NCBI GenBank assembly: GCA_041308485.1
Contig: JBFZBL010000092.1
Coordinates: forward strand, 1-42,316
Direction: 5' to 3'
Source of the DNA: Phycisphaerae bacterium
GTDB lineage: Bacteria; Planctomycetota; Phycisphaerae; Sedimentisphaerales; Anaerobacaceae
DNA: 42,316 bases
In this document: in pieces, positions 1,848 to 40,017 of the stretch
How positions within the stretch are numbered: the first letter of the stretch is position 1
Layout: each line of letters starts with the position of its first letter
The notes under the pieces: generated by a model
The model's input: the letters and a program-made list of their open reading frames with translations, nothing else
Told to the model about the DNA's origin: nothing
Database searches by the model: none
Program-made: the position numbers and the translations under genes

Positions 1848-1922
1848 AAAATCAAGCCACAGATTACACAGATTTCACTGTTTTTTTAGTTTTACCTTTT
1901 AGTGTATTCTTGGTAAAATTAT

Positions 1923-1957
1923 AAATCGAAAATAGAAAATAATAAATAGAAAATAAC
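1923..1957. repeat. heptanucleotide-periodic array, AAATNGA/AAATAAN units, intergenic
   Basis: AAATCGA AAATAGA AAATAAT AAATAGA AAATAAC, five 7-nt units directly 5' of tRNA-Gly(TCC). Confidence 0.7.
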
Positions 1958-7762: not shown

Positions 7763-9910
7763 TCACCTTCCTACGTAACCTGCTTCGGCGCAGAACAGCA
7801 GGATGTCCCTTCCCAATGGTGCGGCGTCGGATGAACCCGCCTGGCCTCCCTCGACGAGGACGGCGACCGCGATTATTCTTCCTTTACTGTCTTTGGCAAA
7901 GCCGCCAAACCAGGCGTGTTCGGGCTGTGTTGTTGAGCCGGTCTTGCCGTATAGCCGTATTCCCCGCGAAGAGAAATTTCCTAACGCCTGCGCAAATTCC
8001 CTGTTGGCGGTTCCGCCCGATTCTTCCACGACGGCGTGCATTCCCTCATAAACGGTTGCCAGTGTTACAGGGGAGATATTCAGGTTGACCGGCGCCGGTT
8101 TTGGCGCACAGGGGTCGGCTATAAGTCGGGGCGGGAGATAAATGCCGCCTCTGGCTAAGCAGGCCATCGCGTTCGCCACCTGTAAAGGTGTTGCCCTGAG
8201 GTTGCCCTGTCCAATTCCGAACCACCGTTCTTCGCCTGGCAGAAGTGCGGGCAATTGCTCAAAACTTGTAATCGTGTCTTTTGCGGGAGTGTTGGCGATT
8301 TGTCCCTGTACCTGTCTGAAATTTCTCGATGCTTGATGCTCGATACTCGATACTCGATTTTCGATGCTCGATGTGTGTTCGTCATTGTTATCGATTATCG
8401 AAGGAAGGGCGAGTCGGCCGTAGCCGAATCTAAAAAGCCAGCTTTGCAGGACGAGGGGGTCGAGACGGTCGGCCAGGTGTGAAAAATATATGTTGCAGCT
8501 TCCCTTTATGGCGTTGCGGGCGGTGTTCGACCATAAAGTATCATGTCCCACGTGGCTTCTTAAAAATATGAGGCAATTAGGCCAGCCCTGCGGCGCCCTG
8601 TGCGAAGGGCAGTTTATCACTTCGCCGGCGTTAATTTTGCCGGATTCCATTCCAGCGGTCAGTATCAGGGGTTTTATAACTGAGCCGGGCGGGTAATGCA
8701 TATTTATGGCACGATTGCGCAGCGGCTCGCAGGGGTCGCTGACGAGCGCGCCGTAGGTCTGCCTGACAAGGTTCAAATCGTAATCGGGCAGCGAGACGAG
8801 GGCGAGGATATCGCCTGAGCCGACGTCGATAACCACGGCGGCGGAAGGGGACTTGCAGATGTGATTCAGGGAGCAGTCGGTTATGCGCTGCTCAATTTTC
8901 TTTTGCAGCTCGATATCGATTGTCAGGCGGATGTCCTGGCCGAACTGCGCATCTGTTTGCCGGACGAGGTTTTTGTCTATGTCGAAGACGACCTCGCCAC
9001 GTTTACCGCGGAGAATCTGCTCGCAGACGTATTCGACGCCGTCTTCCCGTCCACAAAGCTCATCATCAAGGTAACTGACTAAACTGTCGTCGGCGAAGAG
9101 GTCTTTATCCTGCCGGCTTGGCGGGCCTACCCAGCCGATTGTCTGTGAGGCCGCAGAGCCGAAGGGATATACGCGCTGGCCCTTCGCTATGACCTCGACG
9201 CCGGTGACGTTGAGGAATTCAACTCTGGCGGCGAACACGGCGTCCTCCGATTTCAATTCTACGACGGGCTGTGTTTTTTTAAGCTCGGCGAGGTCGTCCA
9301 CTTTGTTTATCAGCAGAAGGCGGTCGCACGGGTCAGGGAATTTTTTTTCAAAATCGGCAATCGCCTCGGAGAGGGGGACGTTACTGAGATTGCGGTCATA
9401 TTTTTTCAATATATCGGCGCCGGGGGTGTTTCTGGCCCAGGCGAAAAACGTTCTGAGGTTCCAGATTTTGTCGTTTATTTTTTGAAGCCGAAGCACTACT
9501 TCCTCGCGTGACATGCCGAATTGCACGCATTTGCTGATTAGCAGGTCAAGGTCTTCCTGCCGGTCGGCGAATTCCTGCTGCAGGGGCGATATGTTGGCGT
9601 CGGGGTCTTTCGATTTGACCCGAAGAGACAGTGCCTGGAGGACGCGTTCGTCGAGAAATCGGCTTAGTTCATAGTTTATCGCCAGCCAGAACCTCGGCTC
9701 GTCGGCGGCGAGGACCTGTCCTTTTCTATCGAGAATTCTCCCCCGCATTGTTCTGACCTGCTGGAGGGAGCCCGCCTGAATGCGCAATTGCGCGACCTGT
9801 TCCCTGTAAAAGGAGGTCGAGAGCAGCTGCATATCCGCGAGTCGAAAGACGCATAGGCCGAGCAAAACGGCCCCTGCGATTACCAGAATGGTGATTCTTT
9901 TTTTATACAT
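7763..9910 (-). CDS. mrdA: penicillin-binding protein 2 (elongasome D,D-transpeptidase)
   Basis: 715 aa with an N-terminal TM and motifs S-V-I-K (PPGSVIKP), S-C-N (KGSCNIY) and K-T-G-S (YGKTGST). Directly downstream of mreB-mreC-mreD. Contains a low-complexity insert encoded by heptamer repeats. Confidence 0.85.
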   Translation of the reverse strand: MYKKRITILVIAGAVLLGLCVFRLADMQLLSTSFYREQVAQLRIQAGSLQQVRTMRGRILDRKGQVLAADEPRFWLAINYELSRFLDERVLQALSLRVKSKDPDANISPLQQEFADRQEDLDLLISKCVQFGMSREEVVLRLQKINDKIWNLRTFFAWARNTPGADILKKYDRNLSNVPLSEAIADFEKKFPDPCDRLLLINKVDDLAELKKTQPVVELKSEDAVFAARVEFLNVTGVEVIAKGQRVYPFGSAASQTIGWVGPPSRQDKDLFADDSLVSYLDDELCGREDGVEYVCEQILRGKRGEVVFDIDKNLVRQTDAQFGQDIRLTIDIELQKKIEQRITDCSLNHICKSPSAAVVIDVGSGDILALVSLPDYDLNLVRQTYGALVSDPCEPLRNRAINMHYPPGSVIKPLILTAGMESGKINAGEVINCPSHRAPQGWPNCLIFLRSHVGHDTLWSNTARNAIKGSCNIYFSHLADRLDPLVLQSWLFRFGYGRLALPSIIDNNDEHTSSIENRVSSIEHQASRNFRQVQGQIANTPAKDTITSFEQLPALLPGEERWFGIGQGNLRATPLQVANAMACLARGGIYLPPRLIADPCAPKPAPVNLNISPVTLATVYEGMHAVVEESGGTANREFAQALGNFSSRGIRLYGKTGSTTQPEHAWFGGFAKDSKGRIIAVAVLVEGGQAGSSDAAPLGRDILLFCAEAGYVGR
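8324..8401. repeat. heptanucleotide-periodic array inside mrdA: NNTCGAT x7, then TTATCGA x2
   Basis: TCTCGAT GCTTGAT GCTCGAT ACTCGAT ACTCGAT TTTCGAT GCTCGAT (8324-8372), and TTATCGA TTATCGA (8388-8401). This segment encodes IIDNNDEHTSSIENRVSSIEHQASRN. Confidence 0.85.
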
Positions 9911-13772: not shown

Positions 13773-14801
13773 TCACCGTCCTATATTATTGGCAGAAGTA
13801 TATTGTAAGGTCGCCTTAGCTGCGGCAAGCCTGGTAAACTGAAACTCGCTTTTTAGTAATTCCGGGAGGAAGTTTTTAAGGGTTGGCGTCCTGATTTGGC
13901 CTATTGCAAGGGCCGCCAGCGTCTGTATGCGTGCCCTTGTTTCATTGTCCTGTGCGCTGGCTATATCTTTTGTAAGGGCATTGATGATGACTTTTTCGCC
14001 CGCGGTATCGCCCAGGTTGCCAAGCTGTTCTGCCGCCACGAGACGTACCTCCGTCAGGTCGTCTTTGAGCATTGTTGCAATAGAGTCTTTTGCCTGGGGT
14101 GTTCCCAGCGCCCCCATTGCCCGGATGCCGCAAACCCGGTCATCGGCGTATGCGCTTATCAGCATTGCCCAGAGTTTTTGATAGATTTTGTTGTCGCCAA
14201 GCCGGGCAATGGCCTCAATCGAGCTTAATATGACTTTTTCATCGGAGGTGTTATCTCTCATGGTCTCGTAGAGTATGGGCAAAGCCCGCCTGGGCGATTC
14301 GCCTGATTTACCTAACAGGAAGGCGGCGTTTGCTCTGACACTTTGGTCGTTACTTTTTATGGATGTGTAGATAGTCGCAAGCCCGCTTTTGTAACCAAGT
14401 TTATAAGCAGCATAGGCGGCGGCGATTTTGACGTTTTCGTTATCGTCTTTGAGCAATCGGGTGATGTCGCCGCGTGCCTTAGAGTATCCGGTGTCACCTG
14501 TCGCGACTGCGGCTGCAAACTTAACCGGCACAGACTCGTCTTTGAGCAGCTGCTGTACTGCCGGCATAAACTTGTCTGCCTGGCTTGTCGGAACGGCGGC
14601 AGCCATTTCGATGGCATTGGTTCTGACCTGCGGGCTGCTATTAGCAAGGGCCTGCTGGATTATCTGTGTCGCCTGAGCTTCAAGTTCGCTGCTTACGGGG
14701 CCGCCGGCTGCGTTCTGCTTTACGGGACCGGTTTGGCAGCCGCAAAGAGCAATCAGCGAGAATATGAAACAGGTGAAAACGATTCTATTTTTTATCATCA
14801 T
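13773..14801 (-). CDS. HEAT/PBS-lyase-type repeat protein, probable lipoprotein
   Basis: Signal peptide ending SLIALCGC. Repeated helical units of about 31 aa follow (VRTNAIEMAA, VPVKFAAAVATG, VKIAAAYAAYKLG, VRANAAFLLGK, VRLVAAEQLGNLG, TRLAAAKA). Confidence 0.7.
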   Translation of the reverse strand: MMIKNRIVFTCFIFSLIALCGCQTGPVKQNAAGGPVSSELEAQATQIIQQALANSSPQVRTNAIEMAAAVPTSQADKFMPAVQQLLKDESVPVKFAAAVATGDTGYSKARGDITRLLKDDNENVKIAAAYAAYKLGYKSGLATIYTSIKSNDQSVRANAAFLLGKSGESPRRALPILYETMRDNTSDEKVILSSIEAIARLGDNKIYQKLWAMLISAYADDRVCGIRAMGALGTPQAKDSIATMLKDDLTEVRLVAAEQLGNLGDTAGEKVIINALTKDIASAQDNETRARIQTLAALAIGQIRTPTLKNFLPELLKSEFQFTRLAAAKATLQYTSANNIGR

Positions 14802-16575
14802 TTATTTTACTCCCTTTTTCGCCTTGGGTTCGTCGTTTAAGGAAGAATCGCTCAGCAATTTGCGCTATTATGATTACAACTACACTCAACTGACAAGCGA
14901 AATCCAGCAACTGGCCGTGTTTGCTGAAAAAAGTAGTCCTCGTGTCGATGGGTACGGTGTCCGCAAACCAGCCCTCAACGCCCTTGCGGTCGAATGCCTT
15001 TCGCGGCAGGTTTCCCGCGGCGTAGCCGTCCTTAATCTGGCCAAGCGTGTCAATCATACAACTGATTCCCGTGTTGACGCTTCGCAGCACGGCTAATCTG
15101 TTCTCTACCGCCCGAAATGCGCAAATCGCCGCGTGCTGTGAAAGCTCGGTTGCGGGCAGGACTTTGCCGTCTTCGAATCGCACAAACCACCCGTCATTGC
15201 TTATATTCACGAGCCAGTCGATTCGCCTGCTGCCTTTTTCATCCAGCGCAAATTTTCTCGCCATAAAAGGCACCGCATCCTCGTAGCAAATCATCACGCT
15301 GAATTTGTATGTGCGGTTGGCATCCTGCGGCTGCATTTCAAAGGCCGTATATTCCGTGCCCGGGTCAATCGTATAATCGAAATCGTAAGGCGACATTTTC
15401 AGGAACAGCTTGTGAATCAGCGGGATATTGGAGAAGGGCAGCATTTCGCCGAAGGGCACGAGATATATTTTGGAGTATTTTTGAGGCGACTGATTGCCGT
15501 CGGGCTTATACAAAAAAGCGGAGTTGAATTTTTGCGCCATGCGAATGTTGCCTGCGTCGTATCGAGGCGTGCCATCGTATGCCCCGACAAGAACATGCGC
15601 ACCTTTTTTGGCGTGCCCGCGGATGGTTTCATCGAAGGTTTTATAATAATGGTCATCAACCAGGAGGCGCAAGACCTGCCGGTTCAGTATTGCCTGCACC
15701 ATCGTTTCGGGCCAGACGACAAGTTTGGCCCCCGCAGTGATACACTGGTCGCTTTGCACCAGCAGCTCATCGAAAATTTGTTTTTCCGCGGCAAAGGATT
15801 TTTTGACGGATATGGGTATGTTCGTCTGAACCGCTGCAATCATAGGCCCGGGCGTGACTGTCGTATCGGACTGATTTATTCGCCAGTGTCCATACACGAG
15901 TGTGCCAACAACTACTGCGACTGTTACGATAATTGAGAATTTAGAATTAAGAATTAAGAAAGGCAGCCGAAGGCTCATTTGTTTCTTTTCTGAATTCTCA
16001 GTTTTCAATTCTAAATTTTTGGCACAAATTATTAATTGTGCAATTAACCCATTTACCATTCCCACCACAAACGAGACGCCCGCCGCGCCGAATATGTCGG
16101 CTATCTGGATTAAGGTGGTGTTGGTGAATTGGCTGTGAGCGAGATAGTTCCAGTAAAAGCCGCCCAGGAAAAGCCCCTGCATCTGCTCGATGCCTACGAC
16201 TGAGATGGGGACGGCGATAAAAAGCGGTATCTTTTTGTTTTTGCACCACCGCAAAGATAACACCAGTATAGGCCAGAGGAGGGCGGTATAAAGGCAAAAT
16301 GCGAGCCAGCCAATAACCGTTACGAAGCTCATCCAGTATATATTGCCGAGCCAGTAGCAGGTCGAGACGGCAAATGCGGTAAGATATAATCTCGATACTC
16401 GATGCTTGATACTCGATTCTCGTGATTCGGATAAGCAGACAAGAATAAAAGGCACATACGCCACCCACGCCAGCGGCCACCATCCAATCGGCTGCTGCGC
16501 CAGTGTCAGCATAACCGCCGTCGCGGCAAAAGCAGCTAAAAGACGCAAAATCCCTTTCGTGTTTTGAATACTCAA
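14785..16575 (-). CDS. lnt: apolipoprotein N-acyltransferase
   Basis: Polytopic N-terminal half and a C-terminal CN-hydrolase domain with LVVWPE (Glu), KIYLVPFGE (Lys) and VMICYE (Cys). TTG start at 16575 overlaps the methyltransferase stop by 4 nt; a later start cannot be excluded. Two repeat-encoded inserts lie in the membrane half. Confidence 0.85.
   Translation of the reverse strand: MSIQNTKGILRLLAAFAATAVMLTLAQQPIGWWPLAWVAYVPFILVCLSESRESSIKHRVSRLYLTAFAVSTCYWLGNIYWMSFVTVIGWLAFCLYTALLWPILVLSLRWCKNKKIPLFIAVPISVVGIEQMQGLFLGGFYWNYLAHSQFTNTTLIQIADIFGAAGVSFVVGMVNGLIAQLIICAKNLELKTENSEKKQMSLRLPFLILNSKFSIIVTVAVVVGTLVYGHWRINQSDTTVTPGPMIAAVQTNIPISVKKSFAAEKQIFDELLVQSDQCITAGAKLVVWPETMVQAILNRQVLRLLVDDHYYKTFDETIRGHAKKGAHVLVGAYDGTPRYDAGNIRMAQKFNSAFLYKPDGNQSPQKYSKIYLVPFGEMLPFSNIPLIHKLFLKMSPYDFDYTIDPGTEYTAFEMQPQDANRTYKFSVMICYEDAVPFMARKFALDEKGSRRIDWLVNISNDGWFVRFEDGKVLPATELSQHAAICAFRAVENRLAVLRSVNTGISCMIDTLGQIKDGYAAGNLPRKAFDRKGVEGWFADTVPIDTRTTFFSKHGQLLDFACQLSVVVIIIAQIAERFFLKRRTQGEKGSKINDDKK
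15930..16016. repeat. 87-nt inverted pair of heptamer arrays inside lnt (AATTNAG x4, 31-nt spacer, CTNAATT x4)
   Basis: AATTGAG AATTTAG AATTAAG AATTAAG (15930-15957) and CTGAATT CTCAGTT TTCAATT CTAAATT (15989-16016). The arms are 21/28 complementary. The spacer holds a small GCC-GAA-GGC hairpin. 87 nt equals 29 codons, encoding KNLELKTENSEKKQMSLRLPFLILNSKFS. Confidence 0.8.
16390..16431. repeat. heptanucleotide-periodic array inside lnt, NNTCGAT family
   Basis: TCTCGAT ACTCGAT GCTTGAT ACTCGAT TCTCGTG ATTCGGA. Same unit family and same strand orientation as the mrdA array. Encodes SESRESSIKHRVS. Confidence 0.8.
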
Positions 16576-17522
16576 TCCGTTATGCCCTTCAAAGCGGTCG
16601 CTATCTCCGCGGAGATATACTGTTTTTGATTGTTCATTCGGATGGCAAACTGGCCCGTGAACAGTTCCAGAAGGTCTTTGTTCGACAGGAGCTGTTTGGG
16701 TGAATATCCGATGTCCGGTATGAGCCGTTTTAATTCACGTATTTCGACGATATTCAGTTTGTGTTCTTTTTCCATTCTCGCTTGAGTATCGAGCTGAGCG
16801 AGACGCTGATTTGCTTTTTTAACATAATCCGCGGAGATTTCTATACCGACGTAGTTTCTGTGCAGTTTTTTTGCCGCTGCTGCCGTTGTACCTGAGCCGA
16901 CGAATGGGTCAAGAACACAGTCTCCCGCATTTGAGCTTGCCGCGATGATTCTCATAAGCAATTGTTCAGGCATCTGGCAGGGGTGCCAGCCGGTGCGTTC
17001 TTTGAATGTTCCGCACACCCGCGGGTCCTCCCATACGTCGTCGGGAATCTTGCCCGCGGGGTTGGCGCGTTTATCCGCATAAATCAACTGCCGGTCCGAT
17101 GGAACTCGCACTGCGAAATCGTTGAAAGCGAAATTTTTACTGTCATTGACAAAGTAAAATATATGCGTGTGTGAACGGGCGAACTTGTCTTTTGTCTGCT
17201 GGCCAAAGGTATAGTGCCATATTATCCAGTTGCGCATCACCAAACCCAGTTCATCTGCGATAACCTTTACATTCGCGGCGTAATCATCTCCTATGGCGAT
17301 GTAAAACGAACCGGCGGGCTTGAGCACTTTTTTGCAGGCGGCAATCCAGTCTTTTGTCCACGCGATGTAGTTATTTCGTTCGACTTTATCGTGGTATTTA
17401 TCGTATTTGTACCCGATATTGAAGGGGGGGTCTGCGAATATCAAGTCCACGAAGGGCTGGGCGATTTTGCCCAGTGTTTCGATACAGTCGCCGCAAATTA
17501 TCTTATTCAATAATTCCTGCAT
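16572..17522 (-). CDS. beta-class N6-adenine/N4-cytosine DNA methyltransferase, no cognate nuclease in the window
   Basis: Motif IV IFADPPFNIGY comes N-terminal to motif I VLDPFVGSGTTAAAA, the beta-class permutation of the N6_N4_Mtase family. A tail of about 80 aa follows the catalytic core. Confidence 0.85.
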   Translation of the reverse strand: MQELLNKIICGDCIETLGKIAQPFVDLIFADPPFNIGYKYDKYHDKVERNNYIAWTKDWIAACKKVLKPAGSFYIAIGDDYAANVKVIADELGLVMRNWIIWHYTFGQQTKDKFARSHTHIFYFVNDSKNFAFNDFAVRVPSDRQLIYADKRANPAGKIPDDVWEDPRVCGTFKERTGWHPCQMPEQLLMRIIAASSNAGDCVLDPFVGSGTTAAAAKKLHRNYVGIEISADYVKKANQRLAQLDTQARMEKEHKLNIVEIRELKRLIPDIGYSPKQLLSNKDLLELFTGQFAIRMNNQKQYISAEIATALKGITD

Positions 17523-17532
17523 ACCGGCATAT

Positions 17533-17574
17533 TTTAAGCTTAAAACTTAAAACTAAAAGCTAAAAACTTATGAC
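17533..17574. repeat. heptanucleotide-periodic array, TTAAAAC/TAAAAGC units, intergenic
   Basis: TTTAAGC TTAAAAC TTAAAAC TAAAAGC TAAAAAC TTATGAC, directly upstream of the methyltransferase start codon. Confidence 0.75.
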
Positions 17575-25680: not shown

Positions 25681-25771
25681 TTGGAAATTTGCGGTTTGGT
25701 AATTTGAATTTGTTTAGGATTTAGGGTTTAGTGCTTAGGATTTTGAACTACACGCTGCACGCTGTCCGCTG
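25681..25771. repeat. 91-nt phase-locked heptamer array made of three unit families
   Basis: Thirteen consecutive 7-nt units in one register. They read TTGGAAA TTTGCGG TTTGGTA ATTTGAA TTTGTTT, then AGGATTT AGGGTTT AGTGCTT AGGATTT, then TGAACTA, then CACGCTG CACGCTG TCCGCTG. A 14-nt duplication TGAGTTTATCGAAG / TGAGTACAATCGAG lies just upstream at 25603-25630. Confidence 0.8.
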
Positions 25772-25919
25772 CTTTATGTCAATTTGGGTAACTTGCCCTC
25801 CATTCGACACACACAAAAACGAGGGGCAAGTAGGGTCAAGTAGGGGCAACTAAAAACTTCCTTATAATAGCATTAGTATTTCTTGTTGAAAAATAGGCAA
25901 TTGTGATTTTTTTGGGGGC

Positions 25920-26816: not shown

Positions 26817-27323
26817 ATGACCGAGGACGTTGTCAATGCCAGGCAGTTCAATCTTTTGGACGAAAATGGCAAGGTCCGCGCCCGTCTGGGGATGCAGAAC
26901 GGGCCGAAGTTAGTTTTTTTCGACGAGGATGGAAAGAATCGTGCCGAATTGACCGTGTCAAAGGATGGGCCGAGGTTGGACTTTAGCGACGAGAATGGCA
27001 AACTCCGCGCCTATCTGCGTGTGTCAAATGACGGGCCGGTGTTGCTATTTGGCGACGAGAACAGCAAGCCCTGCGCCTATCTGCGCGTGCCAAAGGACGG
27101 GCCGAGGTTGGCCCTGTTCGACGCGAGTGGAAAGCCCCGCGCCTATCTGCGCGTGTCAAAGGAGGGGCCTGTGTTGGAACTGGGCGACGAGAAAGGACTA
27201 CGCGCCGGTCTTGGGGCCGCCCAAGTTACTTCAAAGGATGGAGTTGTTGTTACATATCCCGAATCTTCCCTGGTTCTGCTTGATCCAGACGGCAAGGTGC
27301 AATGGCAGGCCTTTGTCCGGTAG
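26817..27323 (+). CDS. hypothetical protein built from tandem 22-residue repeats (D-E-x-G-K-x-R-A-x-L-x-V-x-x-D-G-P-x-L-x-L-x)
   Basis: Repeat-initial Asp residues fall at positions 15, 36, 58, 80, 102 and 124, a period of 21-22 aa. SD GGAAAGGAG lies upstream. No signal peptide. Confidence 0.75.
   Translation: MTEDVVNARQFNLLDENGKVRARLGMQNGPKLVFFDEDGKNRAELTVSKDGPRLDFSDENGKLRAYLRVSNDGPVLLFGDENSKPCAYLRVPKDGPRLALFDASGKPRAYLRVSKEGPVLELGDEKGLRAGLGAAQVTSKDGVVVTYPESSLVLLDPDGKVQWQAFVR
26853..27221 (+). repeat. 66-nt tandem coding repeat, 5-6 copies
   Basis: The DNA motif GCGCCTATCTGCG(T/C)GTG(T/C)CAAA recurs with a 66-nt period (near 27005, 27071 and 27137). The protein-level repeat is listed above. 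Confidence 0.8.
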
Positions 27324-35234: not shown

Positions 35235-35933
35235 ATGCTCAGATTTTTGAGGAAATTTCGCAAAAGTTTCAAAACAGCATGCCTGACCGCGGCTCTGGCA
35301 ACATGCTGGCAGGTAGGGCAGCCGGCAAAAGCTGACTGGGGTGACTGGAATGAGGTTACTTTTAGGCTAACCGGAACGGTCACACCAACTCAACACAATG
35401 TCTCAAATTTGTATCTTCTCTATGGTTTGAATAATTCGTACGTACGAGAATTTTCTTATATAAGTCTCGGAAATTTCCCAGCCGGGGTCATTAGTAACTT
35501 ATCCATAGATATGACAGTGCCATATGATGAAAGCATCTTTGATAGTGATGACAAAAATGTGTATTGGGAAGCTGTAGGCCTTTATGGAGATATCAGCGGC
35601 GGGTACGACGACAAAAAAAATGGTGTGACATTAGGGATAAATGCCGCTGTAGGTGACCCATGGAGTTCACATACTTGGCGTGATGAAGGAGAGGTATTCA
35701 GCCGGCTTATAGATAACCAGGATTCTCATCAATGGGATAGTGGTTTTCATCCCTGGTATCCCATTGATTTCCAATATCATTCTTTCAATCTTACAATTAA
35801 CTTATTTGATTTTTCAAATGCCAGCTACAACGGGCAGGTTCAGTTAAATTTAGAGGTTGTACCTGAGCCGGTAACAATTATTCTGTTCGGGACAGGCGGA
35901 TTGATAGTTGCTGCCTTCCGCCGGCGGAGGTAG
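35235..35933 (+). CDS. PEP-CTERM sorting-domain protein, paralog 1
   Basis: Signal peptide MLRFLRKFRKSFKTACLTAALATCWQVGQPAKA. Conserved core AVGLYGDISGG...NGVTLG. C-terminal VPEPVTIILFGTGGLIVAAFRRRR (PEP motif, TM, Arg cluster). SD GGAG upstream. Confidence 0.85.
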   Translation: MLRFLRKFRKSFKTACLTAALATCWQVGQPAKADWGDWNEVTFRLTGTVTPTQHNVSNLYLLYGLNNSYVREFSYISLGNFPAGVISNLSIDMTVPYDESIFDSDDKNVYWEAVGLYGDISGGYDDKKNGVTLGINAAVGDPWSSHTWRDEGEVFSRLIDNQDSHQWDSGFHPWYPIDFQYHSFNLTINLFDFSNASYNGQVQLNLEVVPEPVTIILFGTGGLIVAAFRRRR

Positions 35934-35968
35934 CAATTATTGCTTTTTTTTGACAGAGGAGAAAAAAG

Positions 35969-36643
35969 GTGCTCAAGTTTCTGAGAAAGTTTCGAAAGAA
36001 GTTCAGGACGGCTTGCCTTACAGCAACGCTGGCAACCTGCTGGCAGGTGGGCGAGGCGGCAAAGGCAGATACGCCAAACTGGGGGGATGATATTACTATT
36101 AAATTTTCAGGAACTGTATCCCCGACGGTTAAAGACATATCCCATTTATTTCTTGTTTACGGAACAGGATATTCCTTCATTAATTTTGGTCCATGGAATA
36201 TAAAGCTCGGTGATTTCCCCGCAGGGCAGAGCATTTCTTTCTCAGTACAGGGGCCGGCAAGTTACGATTCTGATTTGTTTTGGATCGTTGCGGGTCTTTA
36301 TGGTGATATAAGCAGCGGCAGGTACATCGAAGGAGTTAATGGTGTTACTTTGGGGTTGGAGCCTGGTTCCACCATCGATGGCTGGATCTGGGACTGGAAA
36401 CTGACAGAGCAGGATGCATTTGATTACCTTTTAAATGATTCGCCGGGAAACGCTTTTTTGATATCGGCAATGCGGGAAGAGGTAGGCCTGGAGCTTACCA
36501 ACACAAGTAATTTGTTTAATTTCTCTGGTCTGACTTATAACGGACAAATCCAAATTCAAACTGAAATTGTTCCTGAGCCGGTAAGCATAATCTTGTTCGG
36601 GACAGGCGGATTGATAGTTACTCGCTTGCGCCGGCGGACATAG
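35969..36643 (+). CDS. PEP-CTERM sorting-domain protein, paralog 2
   Basis: GTG start after GAGGAGAAAAAAG. Same signal peptide family. C-terminal VPEPVSIILFGTGGLIVTRLRRRT. Confidence 0.85.
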   Translation: MLKFLRKFRKKFRTACLTATLATCWQVGEAAKADTPNWGDDITIKFSGTVSPTVKDISHLFLVYGTGYSFINFGPWNIKLGDFPAGQSISFSVQGPASYDSDLFWIVAGLYGDISSGRYIEGVNGVTLGLEPGSTIDGWIWDWKLTEQDAFDYLLNDSPGNAFLISAMREEVGLELTNTSNLFNFSGLTYNGQIQIQTEIVPEPVSIILFGTGGLIVTRLRRRT

Positions 36644-36676
36644 TGATTTTGCTGTTTTTGAGAGCGGAGAAAAAAG

Positions 36677-37369
36677 ATGCTCAAGTTTCTGAGAAAGTTT
36701 CGAAAGAAATTCAGGACGGCCTGTCTTACGGCAGCATTAGCAACCTGCTGGCAGGTAGGTCAGGCAGCAAAGGCGGATACGCCCAACTGGGGAGATGAGG
36801 TTACTCTTAAATTTACCGGGACAGTTTCACCTTCGACAAATGACTTGTCGCACCTGTTTCTTATCTATGGAACGGGTTACTCCGGTTTGACTTGGGGACC
36901 TTGGGTCGTAAAACTCGGCGACATTCCGGCCGGACAAGATGGCTCTTTTTCAGTGCAGGGGCCTGCGCTTTATCATGAAAGCTTATTTTGGGCTGTCGCA
37001 GGTCTTTATGGTGATGTCAGCGGCGGTCAATATATAGCTGGCACCAATGGTGTTACATTAGGCGTCGTTGGCGCAGTGGGTGACACATGGGCTTATCACT
37101 CTTATTGGGTCAGTGAAGAAGAAATGTTTGGCCATCTTCTAAATGACAACACAGCGGCATTGGCGAACGATGGCAACCTTCTTAGCTGGCCGCATATCGA
37201 GTGGTATTGCGGCCTTGAAACCAGCACATCGAGCGACTTGTTTGATTTTTCGCAGGCCAGTAATAACGGGCAGATGGAGATGACATCCCGGATTGTCCCT
37301 GAGCCGGTAAGCATTATCTTGTTCGGGACAGGCGGATTGATAGTTGCTGCCTTGCGCCGGCGGAGGTAG
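36677..37369 (+). CDS. PEP-CTERM sorting-domain protein, paralog 3
   Basis: ATG start after GGAGAAAAAAG. Same signal peptide family. C-terminal VPEPVSIILFGTGGLIVAALRRRR. Confidence 0.85.
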   Translation: MLKFLRKFRKKFRTACLTAALATCWQVGQAAKADTPNWGDEVTLKFTGTVSPSTNDLSHLFLIYGTGYSGLTWGPWVVKLGDIPAGQDGSFSVQGPALYHESLFWAVAGLYGDVSGGQYIAGTNGVTLGVVGAVGDTWAYHSYWVSEEEMFGHLLNDNTAALANDGNLLSWPHIEWYCGLETSTSSDLFDFSQASNNGQMEMTSRIVPEPVSIILFGTGGLIVAALRRRR

Positions 37370-37403
37370 CAATTATTGCTTTTTTTGGCAGAGGAGAAAA
37401 AAG

Positions 37404-38111
37404 GTGCTCAAGTTTCTGAGAAAGTTTCGAAAGAAGTTCAGGACGGCCTGTCTTACGGCGGCATTGGCAACCTGCTGGCAGGTAGGTCAGGCGGCAAATG
37501 CGGAGATTTCTTATCCCAGTTGGGGGGACGAGGTTGCTTTTAAGTTTACCGGAACGGTTTCACCTTCAACGAATAGCTTGTCTCATATGTTTCTTATTTA
37601 TGGGACAGGATCATCCGGCACAATAGATTTCCCTTTAGGTTTCATAGATCTCGGGAGTTTCGAAAAAGAACAGGTGACTTCATTTTCTGCCCTTGGAGAT
37701 GCTCATTACGCTGAATTTGTGTGGTGGTTCACAGCAGGACTATATGGTGACACAAGCAGCGGTCAATATATCCCAGGCACAAATGGTGTTACGCTTGGTA
37801 TATTGGCTTCGGTGGGGGATTCGTGGGATTTTCGAACACCGATTGTCGACGCTGAAACAACTGCCTTTGCATGCCTTTTGAATAATACGCCCGAAAACCT
37901 GACTATTTCGGATTACTGGGAACAAGGCTGGCACATAGATGAACCAGCTTATATGGTTCTAAATGCTTCGAGTGATTTATATGATTTTTCCACGGCTGTG
38001 AAAAATGGTCAAATGGAGTTTACCCTTGAGATTATCCCTGAGCCGGTAAGCATCGTCTTGTTCGGGACAGGCGGGATGATAGTAGTTGCTTTGCGACGCC
38101 GGAATCAGTAA
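37404..38111 (+). CDS. PEP-CTERM sorting-domain protein, paralog 4
   Basis: The GTG at 37404 after GAGGAGAAAAAAG aligns with the starts of paralogs 2 and 3. The listed ORF start at 37344 overlaps paralog 3. C-terminal IPEPVSIVLFGTGGMIVVALRRRNQ. Confidence 0.8.
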   Translation: MLKFLRKFRKKFRTACLTAALATCWQVGQAANAEISYPSWGDEVAFKFTGTVSPSTNSLSHMFLIYGTGSSGTIDFPLGFIDLGSFEKEQVTSFSALGDAHYAEFVWWFTAGLYGDTSSGQYIPGTNGVTLGILASVGDSWDFRTPIVDAETTAFACLLNNTPENLTISDYWEQGWHIDEPAYMVLNASSDLYDFSTAVKNGQMEFTLEIIPEPVSIVLFGTGGMIVVALRRRNQ

Positions 38112-38122
38112 AGTTTCCGTCG

Positions 38123-39289
38123 ATGAGCATAAGTTTTTGTTTAATTGCGCGAAACGAAGAGAAGAACCTCGAGCGGGTTCTAACTTCCATTAAGCCCGTC
38201 GCGGATGAAATCATTTTAACGGATACGGGCTCAACGGACGCGACAATTCAAATTGCCCAGAAATTCGGGGCTAAAATAAGTCATTTCGCATGGTGCGACG
38301 ACCTTAGTGCGGCAAGAAATTTCGGTTTTAAGCAGGCGACAGGCGACTGGATATTTTGGATTGACGCAGATGAGGAGTTTCTGGCTGAGTCGGCGGATGA
38401 GATTCGCCGCTGTTTGTCGCAGGATAATGTCTTTGCGTATCTTATCCTTCGGCAGGATTTGACTGACCTTGGCCGGCTTGATTTATACAGCGAGATGTGG
38501 CTGCCGCGTTTGTTTCGACGGCACAAGGAAATATTGCTTATCGGAAGGCATCATGAGCAGTTTAAGCCGTCTCTTGTTGAATTGGCCGAAAAGCAGGGGC
38601 AGGTTGTTGAAGGCAGCGCGATACGCATTCGACATTATGGTTTCGCGGGCCCTAAGAGGGCGGATAAATTTTCGCGGGACGTGAAATTGCTCGAACTGGA
38701 GTTGCAGGAGCGGCCCGGGCAGTTATATTATCAAATCGAACTTTATCGCACGCTTCTGCTTATGGGCGATAACCGCTGGCGGACGGTTTTTGCCGAGGCC
38801 GTCGAAAATCTGCGAAAATATATCGAAGAGGAGAATCCGCCGACGCCGCAGGTCGCCTTATTATTTGAAACATTGCTTCAATTGCCTCAAAACGAATTGC
38901 CTGCGGGATTTACCCAGGCTAAATTGCGGGAGCTTGTTGCGAGGTGGTTTCCGCGGTCGGCGCCTTTGTTATGGATACTCGCCAAGCAGGATTATGAGCA
39001 AAGCCGGTTCGGGGAAGCCGAAATGATTCTTCGTCAGTTGATACAAATGGGAAAAGACCGCACTTATGATCGCTCGGTCGGCTTTGACCCCCGCATACTC
39101 GCCGGGGAAGCCGAAATGAACCTTGCGGTATGTTTAATCCGGCAGGCCAGTATTATTGAGGCCACAAAAATTCTCGAGTCATTATCCGCAAGGAAAGAAT
39201 ATCATCTGGCGGCTGAGCAGAACTTAAACGCTATTAAACGGCTTCGAATGGGCTTTTCATCCAAAAGCCGACGCAGGCCCAGATACTAA
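38123..39289 (+). CDS. family 2 glycosyltransferase with a helical-repeat C-terminal half
   Basis: ISFCLIARNEEKNLERVL, ILTDTGSTDAT, DDLSAARNFG and WIFWIDADEEF (DxD-type) are GT2 blocks. The C-terminal 200 aa are helical and TPR-like. Confidence 0.75.
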   Translation: MSISFCLIARNEEKNLERVLTSIKPVADEIILTDTGSTDATIQIAQKFGAKISHFAWCDDLSAARNFGFKQATGDWIFWIDADEEFLAESADEIRRCLSQDNVFAYLILRQDLTDLGRLDLYSEMWLPRLFRRHKEILLIGRHHEQFKPSLVELAEKQGQVVEGSAIRIRHYGFAGPKRADKFSRDVKLLELELQERPGQLYYQIELYRTLLLMGDNRWRTVFAEAVENLRKYIEEENPPTPQVALLFETLLQLPQNELPAGFTQAKLRELVARWFPRSAPLLWILAKQDYEQSRFGEAEMILRQLIQMGKDRTYDRSVGFDPRILAGEAEMNLAVCLIRQASIIEATKILESLSARKEYHLAAEQNLNAIKRLRMGFSSKSRRRPRY

Positions 39290-39333
39290 TAAAAATGTGA
39301 AGCTGACACATTTTTGATTTGAGGAGAAAGCAG

Positions 39334-40017
39334 ATGGAATGGACGTGCAGGGACATAGCGAAAATGATAGACCACTCACTTTTGAAGCCGGAGATGACGG
39401 CTGATGACATCAGGAAGGGCTGCGATGTGGCGAAAAAATACGACGTGGCGACCGTTTGCTGCTCGCCCTGGGCGCTGCCTTTGGTGGCTATGCTGCTCAA
39501 AGGAACTGATATAAAGCCGACGACGGTGATTGGTTTTCCGCACGGGTACAACAAGACCGAAACAAAGGTCTTCGAGGCGGAACAGGCGATTAAAGACGGC
39601 GCACTTGAGCTTGATATGGTGCTCAATATCGGCAAACTCAAAAGCGGCGACTTCGATTATGTAAAAAATGATATTAAAGCCGTTGTCGATACCGCACACA
39701 AGAATAAGGTACTTGTGAAGGTCATACTTGAAAATTTCTACCTTACCGATGAGCAGAAGAAAACCGCGTGTCGGCTTTGCGAGGAAGCTGGCGCTGACTG
39801 GGTGAAGACATCGACGGGCTTTGCCGGCGGCGGGGCGACGATAGAGGATTTGAAACTAATGAGAAAGGCCGTATCGAAAAAGGTGCAGGTCAAGGCGGCA
39901 GGGGGCGTGCGAGACCTTGATATGGCTTTAAAAGTCCGCGAGGTCGGCTGCACTCGCTTCGGCGCAACCGCGACAGCAGCCATTATGGATGAATGCTTTA
40001 AAAAAAGGCAAAAGTAA
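39334..40017 (+). CDS. deoC: deoxyribose-phosphate aldolase
   Basis: The ATG at 39334 is preceded by [41 protein letters not shown] and DWVKTSTGF (Schiff-base Lys) are DeoC blocks. Confidence 0.85.

What the first reader, a model, noticed from the sequence alone, without database searches (positions are those of the whole stretch)
16390..16431. The same NNTCGAT heptamer family recurs inside lnt
TCTCGAT ACTCGAT GCTTGAT ACTCGAT TCTCGTG ATTCGGA sits in the N-terminal membrane half of Lnt and encodes SESRESSIKHRVS. This resembles SSIENRVSSIEHQAS in PBP2. Two unrelated genes carry the same unit family in the same orientation with the reading frame intact. That argues for a recurrent process (a mobile micro-element, templated insertion or repeat seeding) rather than a local slippage accident.
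Basis: partly seen in the sequence, partly recalled or inferred. Interest (0 to 1): 0.65.

Follow-up and report, generated by a model that had tools for sequence, protein, structure and literature searches.

The report
In-frame heptamer repeat inside lnt
A short run of 7-base repeats has replaced part of a cytoplasmic loop of the essential enzyme Lnt in one Sedimentisphaerales lineage; it is one of many such 7-base arrays in these genomes, which survive inside genes only when they add multiples of 21 bases.

Summary
Window 16390-16425 holds five NNNCGAG units on the lnt coding strand. PBP2/MrdA carries seven units of the same family at 8325-8373. Both are far above chance, and the lnt array recurs in independent assemblies.

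The lnt array is derived, not ancestral. Most Lnt orthologues, including DNA about 95% identical with near-identical flanks, have 15 nt (ACAAAACCGTCTAAG) where the window has 36 nt. The net gain is 21 nt, or 7 aa.

Period 7 is the only enriched repeat period in the window and 28 orthologous loci: 50 arrays against 1.2 in shuffles. The same unit families recur at independent sites. (CTCGATN)3 also occurs in many phyla, with many hits in Planctomycetota and Acidobacteriota. Many arrays there form imperfect inverted pairs, some inside conserved genes.

Best reading: a heptanucleotide simple-sequence-repeat family sitting as a passenger in permissive loops and filtered by reading frame. I found no fixed ends, no target duplication, no fixed orientation and no copy-number variation. 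A mobile micro-element is therefore not shown, but templated copying between arrays is not excluded. This is a new variant of a known kind, of moderate interest.

The parts
16390..16425 (-). Derived heptamer array in lnt. The coding strand reads TCACGAG AATCGAG TATCAAG CATCGAG TATCGAG A (36 nt), encoding S51-R62 (SRESSIKHRVSR). It replaces the 15 nt ACAAAACCGTCTAAG (TKPSK) of insert-free alleles, a net +21 nt / +7 aa.
   Evidence: independent contigs
16426..16431 (-). It is ancestral codons TCC GAA (S49 E50), present as TCT GAA in insert-free alleles, and is not part of the array.
14785..16575 (-). lnt (apolipoprotein N-acyltransferase). Site 1 is the TM2-TM3 loop and site 2 the TM6-TM7 loop. 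Both are indel hotspots.
15922..16026 (-). Second heptamer feature inside lnt (site 2). Two 40-nt arms (15922-15961 and 15987-16026) are made of AATTTAG-type and CTAAATT-type heptamers. They are 75% complementary, with a 25-nt spacer. They encode ...NLELKTENSEKK...FLILNSKFSI.
   Evidence: (z -2.19)
8325..8373 (-). Seven-unit array of the same family in PBP2/MrdA. The coding strand reads ATCGAGC ATCGAAA ATCGAGT ATCGAGT ATCGAGC ATCAAGC ATCGAGA, encoding SSIENRVSSIEHQASR in a variable loop after the SCN motif.
8389..8402 (-). Two inverted units (TCGATAA TCGATAA on the coding strand) upstream of the PBP2 array. They form a short imperfect inverted partner.
7763..9910 (-). PBP2/MrdA-type transpeptidase. 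In relatives it lies downstream of mreB-mreC-mreD.
17539..17570 (.). Intergenic heptamer array (CTTAAAA / AAGTTTT type) 17-48 nt upstream of the DNA methylase start codon. It is orthologous across relatives, with a similar unit number but varying unit sequence.

Best explanation
The segment is a short, decayed heptanucleotide simple-sequence repeat of five NNNCGAG units. It belongs to a dispersed population of 7-nt tandem arrays that characterises this Sedimentisphaerales lineage and is also seen in other Planctomycetota, Acidobacteriota and further phyla.

Shown:
- It is a derived replacement of 15 nt by 36 nt in the loop between the second and third predicted membrane helices of Lnt.
- It is carried by a few close relatives and absent from most.
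- Period 7 alone is strongly enriched in the window and orthologous loci.
- The same few unit families recur at unrelated sites.
- All six heptamer-type alleles at this site add exactly 7 aa.

Inferred:
- Arrays arise by a 7-nt-biased duplication or slippage process acting on short seeds.
- In an essential gene, only products that add a multiple of 21 nt (three units), contain no stop codon and fall in a structurally tolerant loop survive.
- Alleles are then shuffled between strains by homologous recombination.
- The inserted peptide has no function of its own. It is a tolerated passenger, as Rickettsia palindromic elements are thought to be.
- The match with PBP2 arises because the CTCGATN (CGAG-core) unit recurs in this lineage and is stop-free in all six frames. 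The two genes are not linked by a common insertion event.
For: - Derived state: the 24-aa empty form of the site is found from 88% down to 47% identical orthologues.
- Sharp boundary: L149 (filled) and L152/L003 (empty) are about 94-95% identical overall. They are 100% identical for about 75 nt downstream of the site, with 4 differences in the 30 nt upstream. The 36-nt and 15-nt segments themselves are unrelated.
- Period-7 enrichment: 50 arrays against 1.2 in shuffles in 336 kb, with every other period at 0-3. In the window alone, 3 against 0.
- Recurrent families: ACTCGAT/AGCATCG occurs at lnt site 1, lnt site 2, the PBP2 loop, the first codons of an ftsI-like PBP, and upstream of PBP2 in L022. 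The ACGAGCC family occurs at lnt site 1 and the PBP2 loop in other lineages.
- Frame quantisation: all six heptamer-type site-1 alleles are 31 aa against 24 aa. The commonest site-2 lengths are 37, 51 and 58 aa.
- Slippage footprint: long arrays elsewhere show contiguous blocks of variant units.
- Six-frame openness of CTCGATN.
- Loop location: low-confidence inter-helix loops at residues 51-56 and 193-209 in the AF2 model, and a gap opposite site 2 in E. coli Lnt.
- Heptamer over-representation and a polymerase-slippage proposal are in the literature (PMC4679880, PMC4692102, citing Mrazek 2007).
Against: - No copy-number variation was seen. Orthologous arrays have the same unit number in relatives 85-95% identical. 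No indels appear in contigs of three runs, but depth was only 3-5x and contigs hide rare variants.
- The empty site has no evident heptamer seed. After removing 21 nt, only 6 of 15 positions match.
- Alleles placed as sisters on an unsupported NJ tree have the same length and the same CGAG cores but different 3-nt spacers in almost every unit: ATCGAG type against CACGAG type. Stepwise slippage does not readily explain that.
- Convergence on the same unit families at different sites is not predicted by purely local origin.
- About a quarter to a third of arrays have an inverted partner. Simple slippage does not produce that.
Confidence: 0.58

Rival explanations
1. Templated installation. Arrays would be copied into new sites from other arrays by short-patch ectopic gene conversion or template switching, or by an unrecognised micro mobile element whose arms are heptamer arrays. 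The lnt and PBP2 arrays would then be copies from a common pool rather than products of local expansion.
For: - The same two unit families appear at lnt site 1 and the PBP2 loop in different lineages.
- The array replaces unrelated sequence between near-identical flanks.
- Unit type switches at constant length between close alleles.
- L011 carries both array types side by side.
- Inverted partners are common: 19 of 50 arrays against 0 in the control, and 50 of 208 against 5.
- (CTCGATN)n-loop-(NATCGAG)n hairpins lie inside conserved genes of other Planctomycetota, namely an oxidoreductase, PIG-L, MlaA and Psd. Their folding z-scores are -2.3 to -3.8.
Against: - There are no conserved ends, no target-site duplication, no fixed unit number and no associated gene.
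- This array has no inverted partner and no fold (z +0.8 as RNA, -0.95 as DNA).
- Hairpin arms are systematically non-complementary at the seventh position. Arm-to-arm template switching would make them complementary there.
- The longest stretch shared by the lnt and PBP2 arrays is 13 nt, which is expected within one unit family.
- Variant blocks in long arrays indicate slippage.
- Sharp allele boundaries can also result from an old polymorphism in a recombining population.
Confidence: 0.25
2. Functional element. The array would serve a purpose: a phase-variation switch (a change of one unit shifts the frame), an RNA or DNA structure or protein-binding array that regulates lnt and PBP2, or a selected peptide module in the loop.
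For: - Arrays of 7-nt units shift the frame when one unit is gained or lost.
- Some related arrays sit directly 5' of start codons (L083, L148) or upstream of the methylase gene, where regulation is conceivable.
- CGAG cores are conserved while spacers vary.
Against: - lnt and mrdA are housekeeping genes, generally essential in Gram-negative bacteria (general knowledge).
- The tract is interrupted, with at most two near-identical adjacent units.
- Unit number is fixed among relatives and no length variants were seen.
- Most orthologues lack the array.
- The array itself has no significant fold and there is no Rfam match.
- The peptide differs entirely between unit types at the same site.
Confidence: 0.07
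3. Chance resemblance, or ancestral loop sequence that merely looks periodic.
For: Within the window alone, two of about 12 arrays sharing a 6-nt core has a probability of roughly 0.2 by my estimate.
Against: Searches give the statistics. Insert-free orthologues appear. The family recurs.
Confidence: 0.02

Closest known systems
Heptanucleotide long simple-sequence repeats of bacteria. These include Mrazek 2007 LSSRs, cyanobacterial STRR heptamers (Calothrix/Nostoc), GGGNATC repeats of Xanthomonas and Nostoc (PMC4692102), and TAACTGA repeats of Beggiatoaceae, Cyanobacteria and Bacteroidetes (PMC4679880).
   Same: - Tandem 7-nt units in short arrays of 2 to about 20 copies.
- Dispersed over the genome, with period 7 specifically over-represented.
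- The same unit is shared by phylogenetically scattered taxa.
- Different heptamer arrays are often adjacent.
- Mechanism unknown; polymerase slippage has been proposed.
   Different: - Those families are reported as mainly intergenic and under-represented in ORFs. Here arrays sit in frame inside lnt, mrdA and other conserved genes.
- The unit here is CTCGATN/CGAG-core.
- Many arrays here form imperfect inverted pairs.
- The host is Planctomycetota (Sedimentisphaerales). My full-text search for 'heptamer repeats' together with 'Planctomycetes' returned no paper.
Rickettsia palindromic elements (RPEs; Ogata 2000, summarised in PMC10969869)
   Same: - Repeated DNA found in frame inside unrelated conserved genes.
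- Translated as extra peptide at positions compatible with the protein fold.
- Related hairpin arrays in other Planctomycetota resemble this most closely.
   Different: - RPEs are about 100-150 bp with a family consensus.
- The array here is 36 nt, has no fixed consensus beyond a 4-6 nt core, is built of tandem heptamers, replaces sequence rather than inserting, and is not palindromic at this site.
Phase-variable contingency loci (for example tetranucleotide SSRs in Haemophilus, PMC2651432)
   Same: A simple-sequence repeat whose unit length is not a multiple of three lies inside an ORF, so a single-unit change would shift the frame.
   Different: - The tract is imperfect and short.
- Its length is invariant among relatives.
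- The host genes are housekeeping genes rather than surface or variable genes.
Very small dispersed repeats (SDRs, 21-27 nt) of Nostoc (Elhai 2008; recalled from my own knowledge, cited in PMC3116915)
   Same: Tiny repeats below 30 nt that appear at new sites, including within other repeats and genes, with no known transposase.
   Different: SDRs have a defined sequence and length. Here only the period and a short core are shared. This comparison was not tested.

Membership tests
Heptanucleotide simple-sequence repeat (LSSR/STRR-like) | Head-to-tail copies of a 7-nt unit, three or more copies | tested here: met
   TRF reports period 7, 4.6 copies, 80% matches at 16391-16422, and 7.0 copies at 8325-8373.
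Heptanucleotide simple-sequence repeat (LSSR/STRR-like) | Over-representation of period 7 relative to composition-matched chance, at many dispersed loci | tested here: met
   50 arrays against 1.2 in shuffles in 336 kb, other periods 0-3. Window alone. In 879 kb of other genomes there are 208 period-7 arrays in 84 unit classes. The loci are syntenic orthologues, so the counts are not independent.
Heptanucleotide simple-sequence repeat (LSSR/STRR-like) | Copy-number change between strains (slippage in action) | tested here: inconclusive
   The unit number is the same in orthologous arrays of relatives. No indels were seen in contigs of three runs at 3-5x depth. Contiguous variant blocks in long arrays of other genomes imply past slippage.
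Heptanucleotide simple-sequence repeat (LSSR/STRR-like) | Predominantly intergenic location (as reported for the described families) | tested here: not met
   This array and the PBP2 array are coding. 39 of 50 arrays in the lineage lie in long open frames, against 83% of random positions; this sample is biased because it is centred on lnt. In other genomes the figure is 42% against 81%.
MITE / RPE-like mobile palindromic element | Family consensus with defined ends or terminal inverted repeats | tested here: not met
   Only the period and a 4-6 nt core are shared. Unit number and spacers vary. This array has no inverted arm.
MITE / RPE-like mobile palindromic element | Target-site duplication or clean insertion relative to the empty site | tested here: not met
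   36 nt replace 15 unrelated nt between near-identical flanks, with no duplication.
MITE / RPE-like mobile palindromic element | In-frame presence in unrelated conserved genes at tolerant positions | tested here: met
   lnt loops and a PBP2 loop. An oxidoreductase, PIG-L, MlaA and Psd in other Planctomycetota.
Phase-variable contingency locus | Long perfect tract with length polymorphism that switches the frame | tested here: not met
   The tract is interrupted and its length is invariant.
Apolipoprotein N-acyltransferase (Lnt), the host gene | LNT_N membrane domain plus CN_hydrolase domain, and homology to solved Lnt | tested here: met
   PF20154 at 2.7e-28 and PF00795 at 9.4e-12. Hits to 8q2p, 5n6h and others at E about 1e-13.

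The most novel reading that the evidence does not exclude
CGAG-core heptamer arrays, often arranged as imperfect palindromes of the form (CTCGATN)n-loop-(NATCGAG)n, could be a previously undescribed class of tiny self-propagating or templated DNA element in Planctomycetota and Acidobacteriota. Such an element would be installed as a block into new sites, including in frame into essential genes such as lnt, mrdA, mlaA and psd. The lnt and PBP2 arrays of this window would be two of its copies.
Probability: 0.17. Interest if true: 0.75.

Novelty: new variant of a known kind. Interest (0 to 1): 0.45.

Why it matters
Heptamer repeats are known to be over-represented in bacterial genomes, but the cause is unknown and they are described as mostly intergenic. 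This lineage gives a clean natural example of such arrays inside essential genes. They are quantised to 21 nt (7 aa) and confined to two cytoplasmic loops of Lnt and one loop of PBP2. Filled and empty alleles occur in backgrounds about 95% identical.

That makes two questions testable. First, how do 7-nt arrays arise: by slippage or by templated copying? Second, how much foreign peptide do these loops tolerate? The loops could also serve as permissive insertion sites for tags.

Practically, such arrays create 7-aa-periodic low-complexity segments and length polymorphism that can mislead orthologue alignment and gene trees in Planctomycetota MAGs.

Tried and rejected
- **Secondary structure of the array itself.** The fold is no better than shuffles (RNA z +0.8, DNA z -0.95). 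A hairpin role at this site is rejected.
- **Rfam.** No family matches any array in the window or in eight hairpin loci.
- **Read-level polymorphism.** Only assembler contigs at 3-5x were available. No indels were seen, but the test is weak.
- **Shared CTTGAT/ATCAAG variant as evidence of common descent.** Rejected. It is a common variant in unrelated arrays across phyla, it sits in a different unit in the orthologous PBP2 array of L149, and it is a C-to-T change at the CpG.
- **Same orientation as evidence.** Rejected, because the family occurs in both orientations.
- **Recombination import from a divergent donor as the sole cause of the filled allele.** There is no extended divergent tract around the win/L149 allele. 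One does flank the L150 allele, so recombination contributes but does not explain the origin.
- **Stop-codon filter as the reason for the unit family.** Half of all heptamers are open in six frames, so the filter is permissive and does not explain the family.
- **Orientation relative to replication.** GC skew over 42 kb is weakly positive and uninformative.
- **Link to the adjacent N6/N4 DNA methylase (TCGA or GANTC sites in the units).** Considered but not tested. Only some unit variants contain GANTC.
Full report
**1. The observation**

Window 16390-16431 reads TCTCGAT ACTCGAT GCTTGAT ACTCGAT TCTCGTG ATTCGGA on the + strand. It lies inside the minus-strand ORF 14785..16575, which encodes ...VPFILVCLSESRESSIKHRVSRLYL....

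The ORF is Lnt. It has Pfam LNT_N (2.7e-28) and CN_hydrolase (9.4e-12) domains. It matches solved Lnt structures at E about 1e-13. It also has hundreds of orthologues named apolipoprotein N-acyltransferase, the closest named ones from Sedimentisphaerales MAGs.

The second array, at 8325-8373, has seven units. It lies in the minus-strand ORF 7763..9910, which has PBP_dimer and Transpeptidase domains. In relatives this gene follows mreB-mreC-mreD, so it is PBP2/MrdA.

The arrays are well above chance:
- The pattern TCGATNN x3 with up to 2 mismatches gives 7 matches against 0.11 expected.
- TRF reports both arrays.
- Period 7 is the only period with 4-copy arrays in the window, and shuffles give none.
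- Contigs from three independent soil-metagenome runs reproduce the lnt array.

**2. It is derived, and smaller than described**

An alignment of 47 Lnt orthologues and a survey of 120 agree. The segment between the conserved AWVAYVPF and WLGNIYW motifs is 24 aa (…C-x-ETKPxKLYL…) in most sequences. This holds from 88% down to 47% identity.

The window, P0002 and P0005 have 31 aa (SESRESSIKHRVSRLYL). At the DNA level:
- The empty allele is GAA ACAAAACCGTCTAAG TTATAT.
- The window allele is GAA TCACGAG AATCGAG TATCAAG CATCGAG TATCGAG A TTATAT.

So 36 nt replace 15 nt, a net gain of 21 nt.

L149 (filled) and L152/L003 (empty) are about 94-95% identical overall. They are 100% identical for about 75 nt downstream of the site, with 4 differences in the 30 nt upstream. 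The 36-nt and 15-nt segments themselves are unrelated. There is no target-site duplication.

**3. The site is a hotspot**

Other lineages carry other arrays at exactly this place:
- L150 has ACACGAG CCACGAG CAACGAG CCACGAG CGACGGG A. It has the same length and the same CGAG cores, but different 3-nt spacers.
- L015 has a CACGAG-type array.
- L011 has a CACGAG-type array, a 33-nt spacer and a window-type array.
- L004 has an inverted pair centred on CTCGAG.

All six heptamer-type alleles are +7 aa.

A second lnt hotspot lies before the last N-terminal membrane helix. In the window it carries two 40-nt arms of AATTTAG-type and CTAAATT-type heptamers (15922-15961 and 15987-16026). The commonest lengths at this site are 37, 51 and 58 aa, which differ by 14 and 21 aa. 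In distant relatives the same site holds other small palindromic repeat families.

On a neighbour-joining tree with the hotspots masked, filled and empty alleles are interleaved. This points to recombination or repeated gain and loss (the tree has no support values).

Both hotspots coincide with low-confidence inter-helix loops in the AF2 model: residues 51-56 and 193-209, in a model with mean pLDDT 65.5. Site 2 aligns to a gap in E. coli Lnt. By comparison with E. coli Lnt topology, both loops are probably cytoplasmic. That is an inference.

**4. The PBP2 array**

The window and L149 share seven ATCGAGN units plus two inverted TCGATAA units. They differ at 8 of 49 positions, which is about background divergence. 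L150, L153, L001 and L011 have a non-array loop of 45 aa. L003 has a CGAGCC-type inverted pair at the same place.

Both unit families therefore occur at both genes in different lineages.

**5. The wider population**

In the window plus 28 orthologous loci (336 kb), TRF finds 50 period-7 arrays of at least 3 copies, against 1.2 in shuffles. All other periods give 0-3. These counts are not independent, because the loci are syntenic orthologues.

The unit families recur:
- ACTCGAT/AGCATCG occurs at lnt site 1.
- It occurs at lnt site 2 in L013 and L018, in the opposite orientation.
- It occurs in the PBP2 loop.
- It forms the first codons of an ftsI-like PBP in L002 and L011.
- It occurs as an inverted pair upstream of PBP2 in L022.

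About 17 hits would be expected by chance in the whole collection (my calculation for uniform base composition). By my count of the listed rows, roughly 30% of hits are in Planctomycetota and 20% in Acidobacteriota. The same 120 loci hold about 100 further heptamer arrays of about 80 other unit classes.

Inverted partners within 80 nt are common: 19 of 50 arrays against 0 in the control, and 50 of 208 against 5. In other Planctomycetota, (CTCGATN)n-loop-(NATCGAG)n hairpins lie:
- inside an FMN/pyridine-nucleotide oxidoreductase, a PIG-L deacetylase, MlaA and Psd;
- directly 5' of start codons.

Their folding z-scores are -2.3 to -3.8, with a periodic mismatch at the seventh position. The lnt array of this window has no partner and no fold.

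**6. Mechanism**

Shown:
- a derived, frame-preserving replacement in a tolerant loop;
- period-7-specific enrichment;
- recurrent unit families;
- alleles shuffled among close backgrounds.

Inferred: a 7-nt-biased duplication or slippage process generates arrays. Such a process was proposed by Mrazek 2007, as cited in PMC4679880 and PMC4692102. Selection in essential genes then keeps only stop-free products that are multiples of 21 nt and lie in loops. The peptide is a passenger.

Against a purely local origin:
- there is no seed in the empty site;
- the unit type switches at constant length;
- different sites converge on the same families;
- inverted partners are frequent.

Against a discrete mobile element:
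- there are no defined ends, no duplication, no fixed length and no fixed orientation;
- there is no associated gene;
- variant blocks in long arrays are typical of slippage;
- hairpin arms are non-complementary at the seventh position.

Copy number looks stable among relatives, and no variants were seen at low depth. Present-day activity is therefore not demonstrated for either mechanism.

**7. Comparison and verdict**

The closest known kind is the heptanucleotide long SSR. Examples are STRR, GGGNATC and TAACTGA repeats, which are described as mainly intergenic (PMC4692102, PMC4679880). In its effect on proteins, the array resembles Rickettsia palindromic elements (PMC10969869). My full-text search for 'heptamer repeats' together with 'Planctomycetes' returned no paper.

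I rate this a new variant of a known kind. Interest is moderate. The more novel reading, a templated micro-element, remains possible at roughly one in six.

Noticed in passing
window 1915-1955, 1962-2032, 2037-2065: A tRNA gene (Rfam, 70.9 bits) is bracketed on both sides by heptamer arrays: AAATAGA type on the 5' side and CAGATGA type on the 3' side.
   Followed up: no
window 16572-17522 (minus); L149-L153: An N6_N4 DNA methylase gene overlaps the lnt start by 4 nt and is syntenic in many relatives. In other relatives the slot between clpP and lnt holds different methylases together with GIY-YIG, HNH/AP2 or TIR-domain genes. The slot therefore looks like a small variable, defence-like islet. 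Some heptamer variants contain GANTC or TCGA sites. No link was tested.
   Followed up: partly
window 26954-27193: A 66/132-nt tandem repeat (3.6 copies, 75-81% matches) lies inside ORF 26817-27323.
   Followed up: no
window 35235-40017: A run of about 230-aa ORFs looks like tandem paralogues. The same 29-nt AAGTTTCTGAAA-type repeat occurs at 35975 and 37410.
   Followed up: no
window 25713-25772: Two adjacent intergenic heptamer arrays. One has AAATCCT/AAACCCT units that resemble the plant-type telomere repeat, probably by coincidence.
   Followed up: no
Lnt site 2 in P0108, P0110, P0113, P0115-P0117: Distant Lnt orthologues carry at the same loop an in-frame segment ...SCHPERSEGS...RFFASLRMT.... 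It looks like the translation of a different, widespread GC-rich palindromic repeat. The loop therefore appears to collect several repeat families.
   Followed up: no
L035 5784-5834, L111 2979-3036, L083 342-395 and similar: In (CTCGATN)n-(NATCGAG)n hairpins, the two arms use different bases at the seventh position. The stems are therefore 6-bp blocks separated by a regular single mismatch.
   Followed up: partly
L009, L010, L023, about 30-85 nt upstream of the methylase start: The intergenic AAGTTTT-type heptamer array is split by a segment of about 50 nt (gccccctgcttaaaaccccc...gagggcaagc) that is absent from other relatives. A second small element appears to have landed inside the array.
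   Followed up: no
Lnt site 2, 37-aa alleles (L149, L150, L152, L003): Even the short allele, ...VRRPWFVVRN... (GTTCGTC GGCCATG GTTCGTT GTTCGCA), looks heptamer-derived (GTTCGTN). The same unit forms an array in a 217-220 aa gene upstream (L003 8286, L006 5199, L012 7338).
   Followed up: partly
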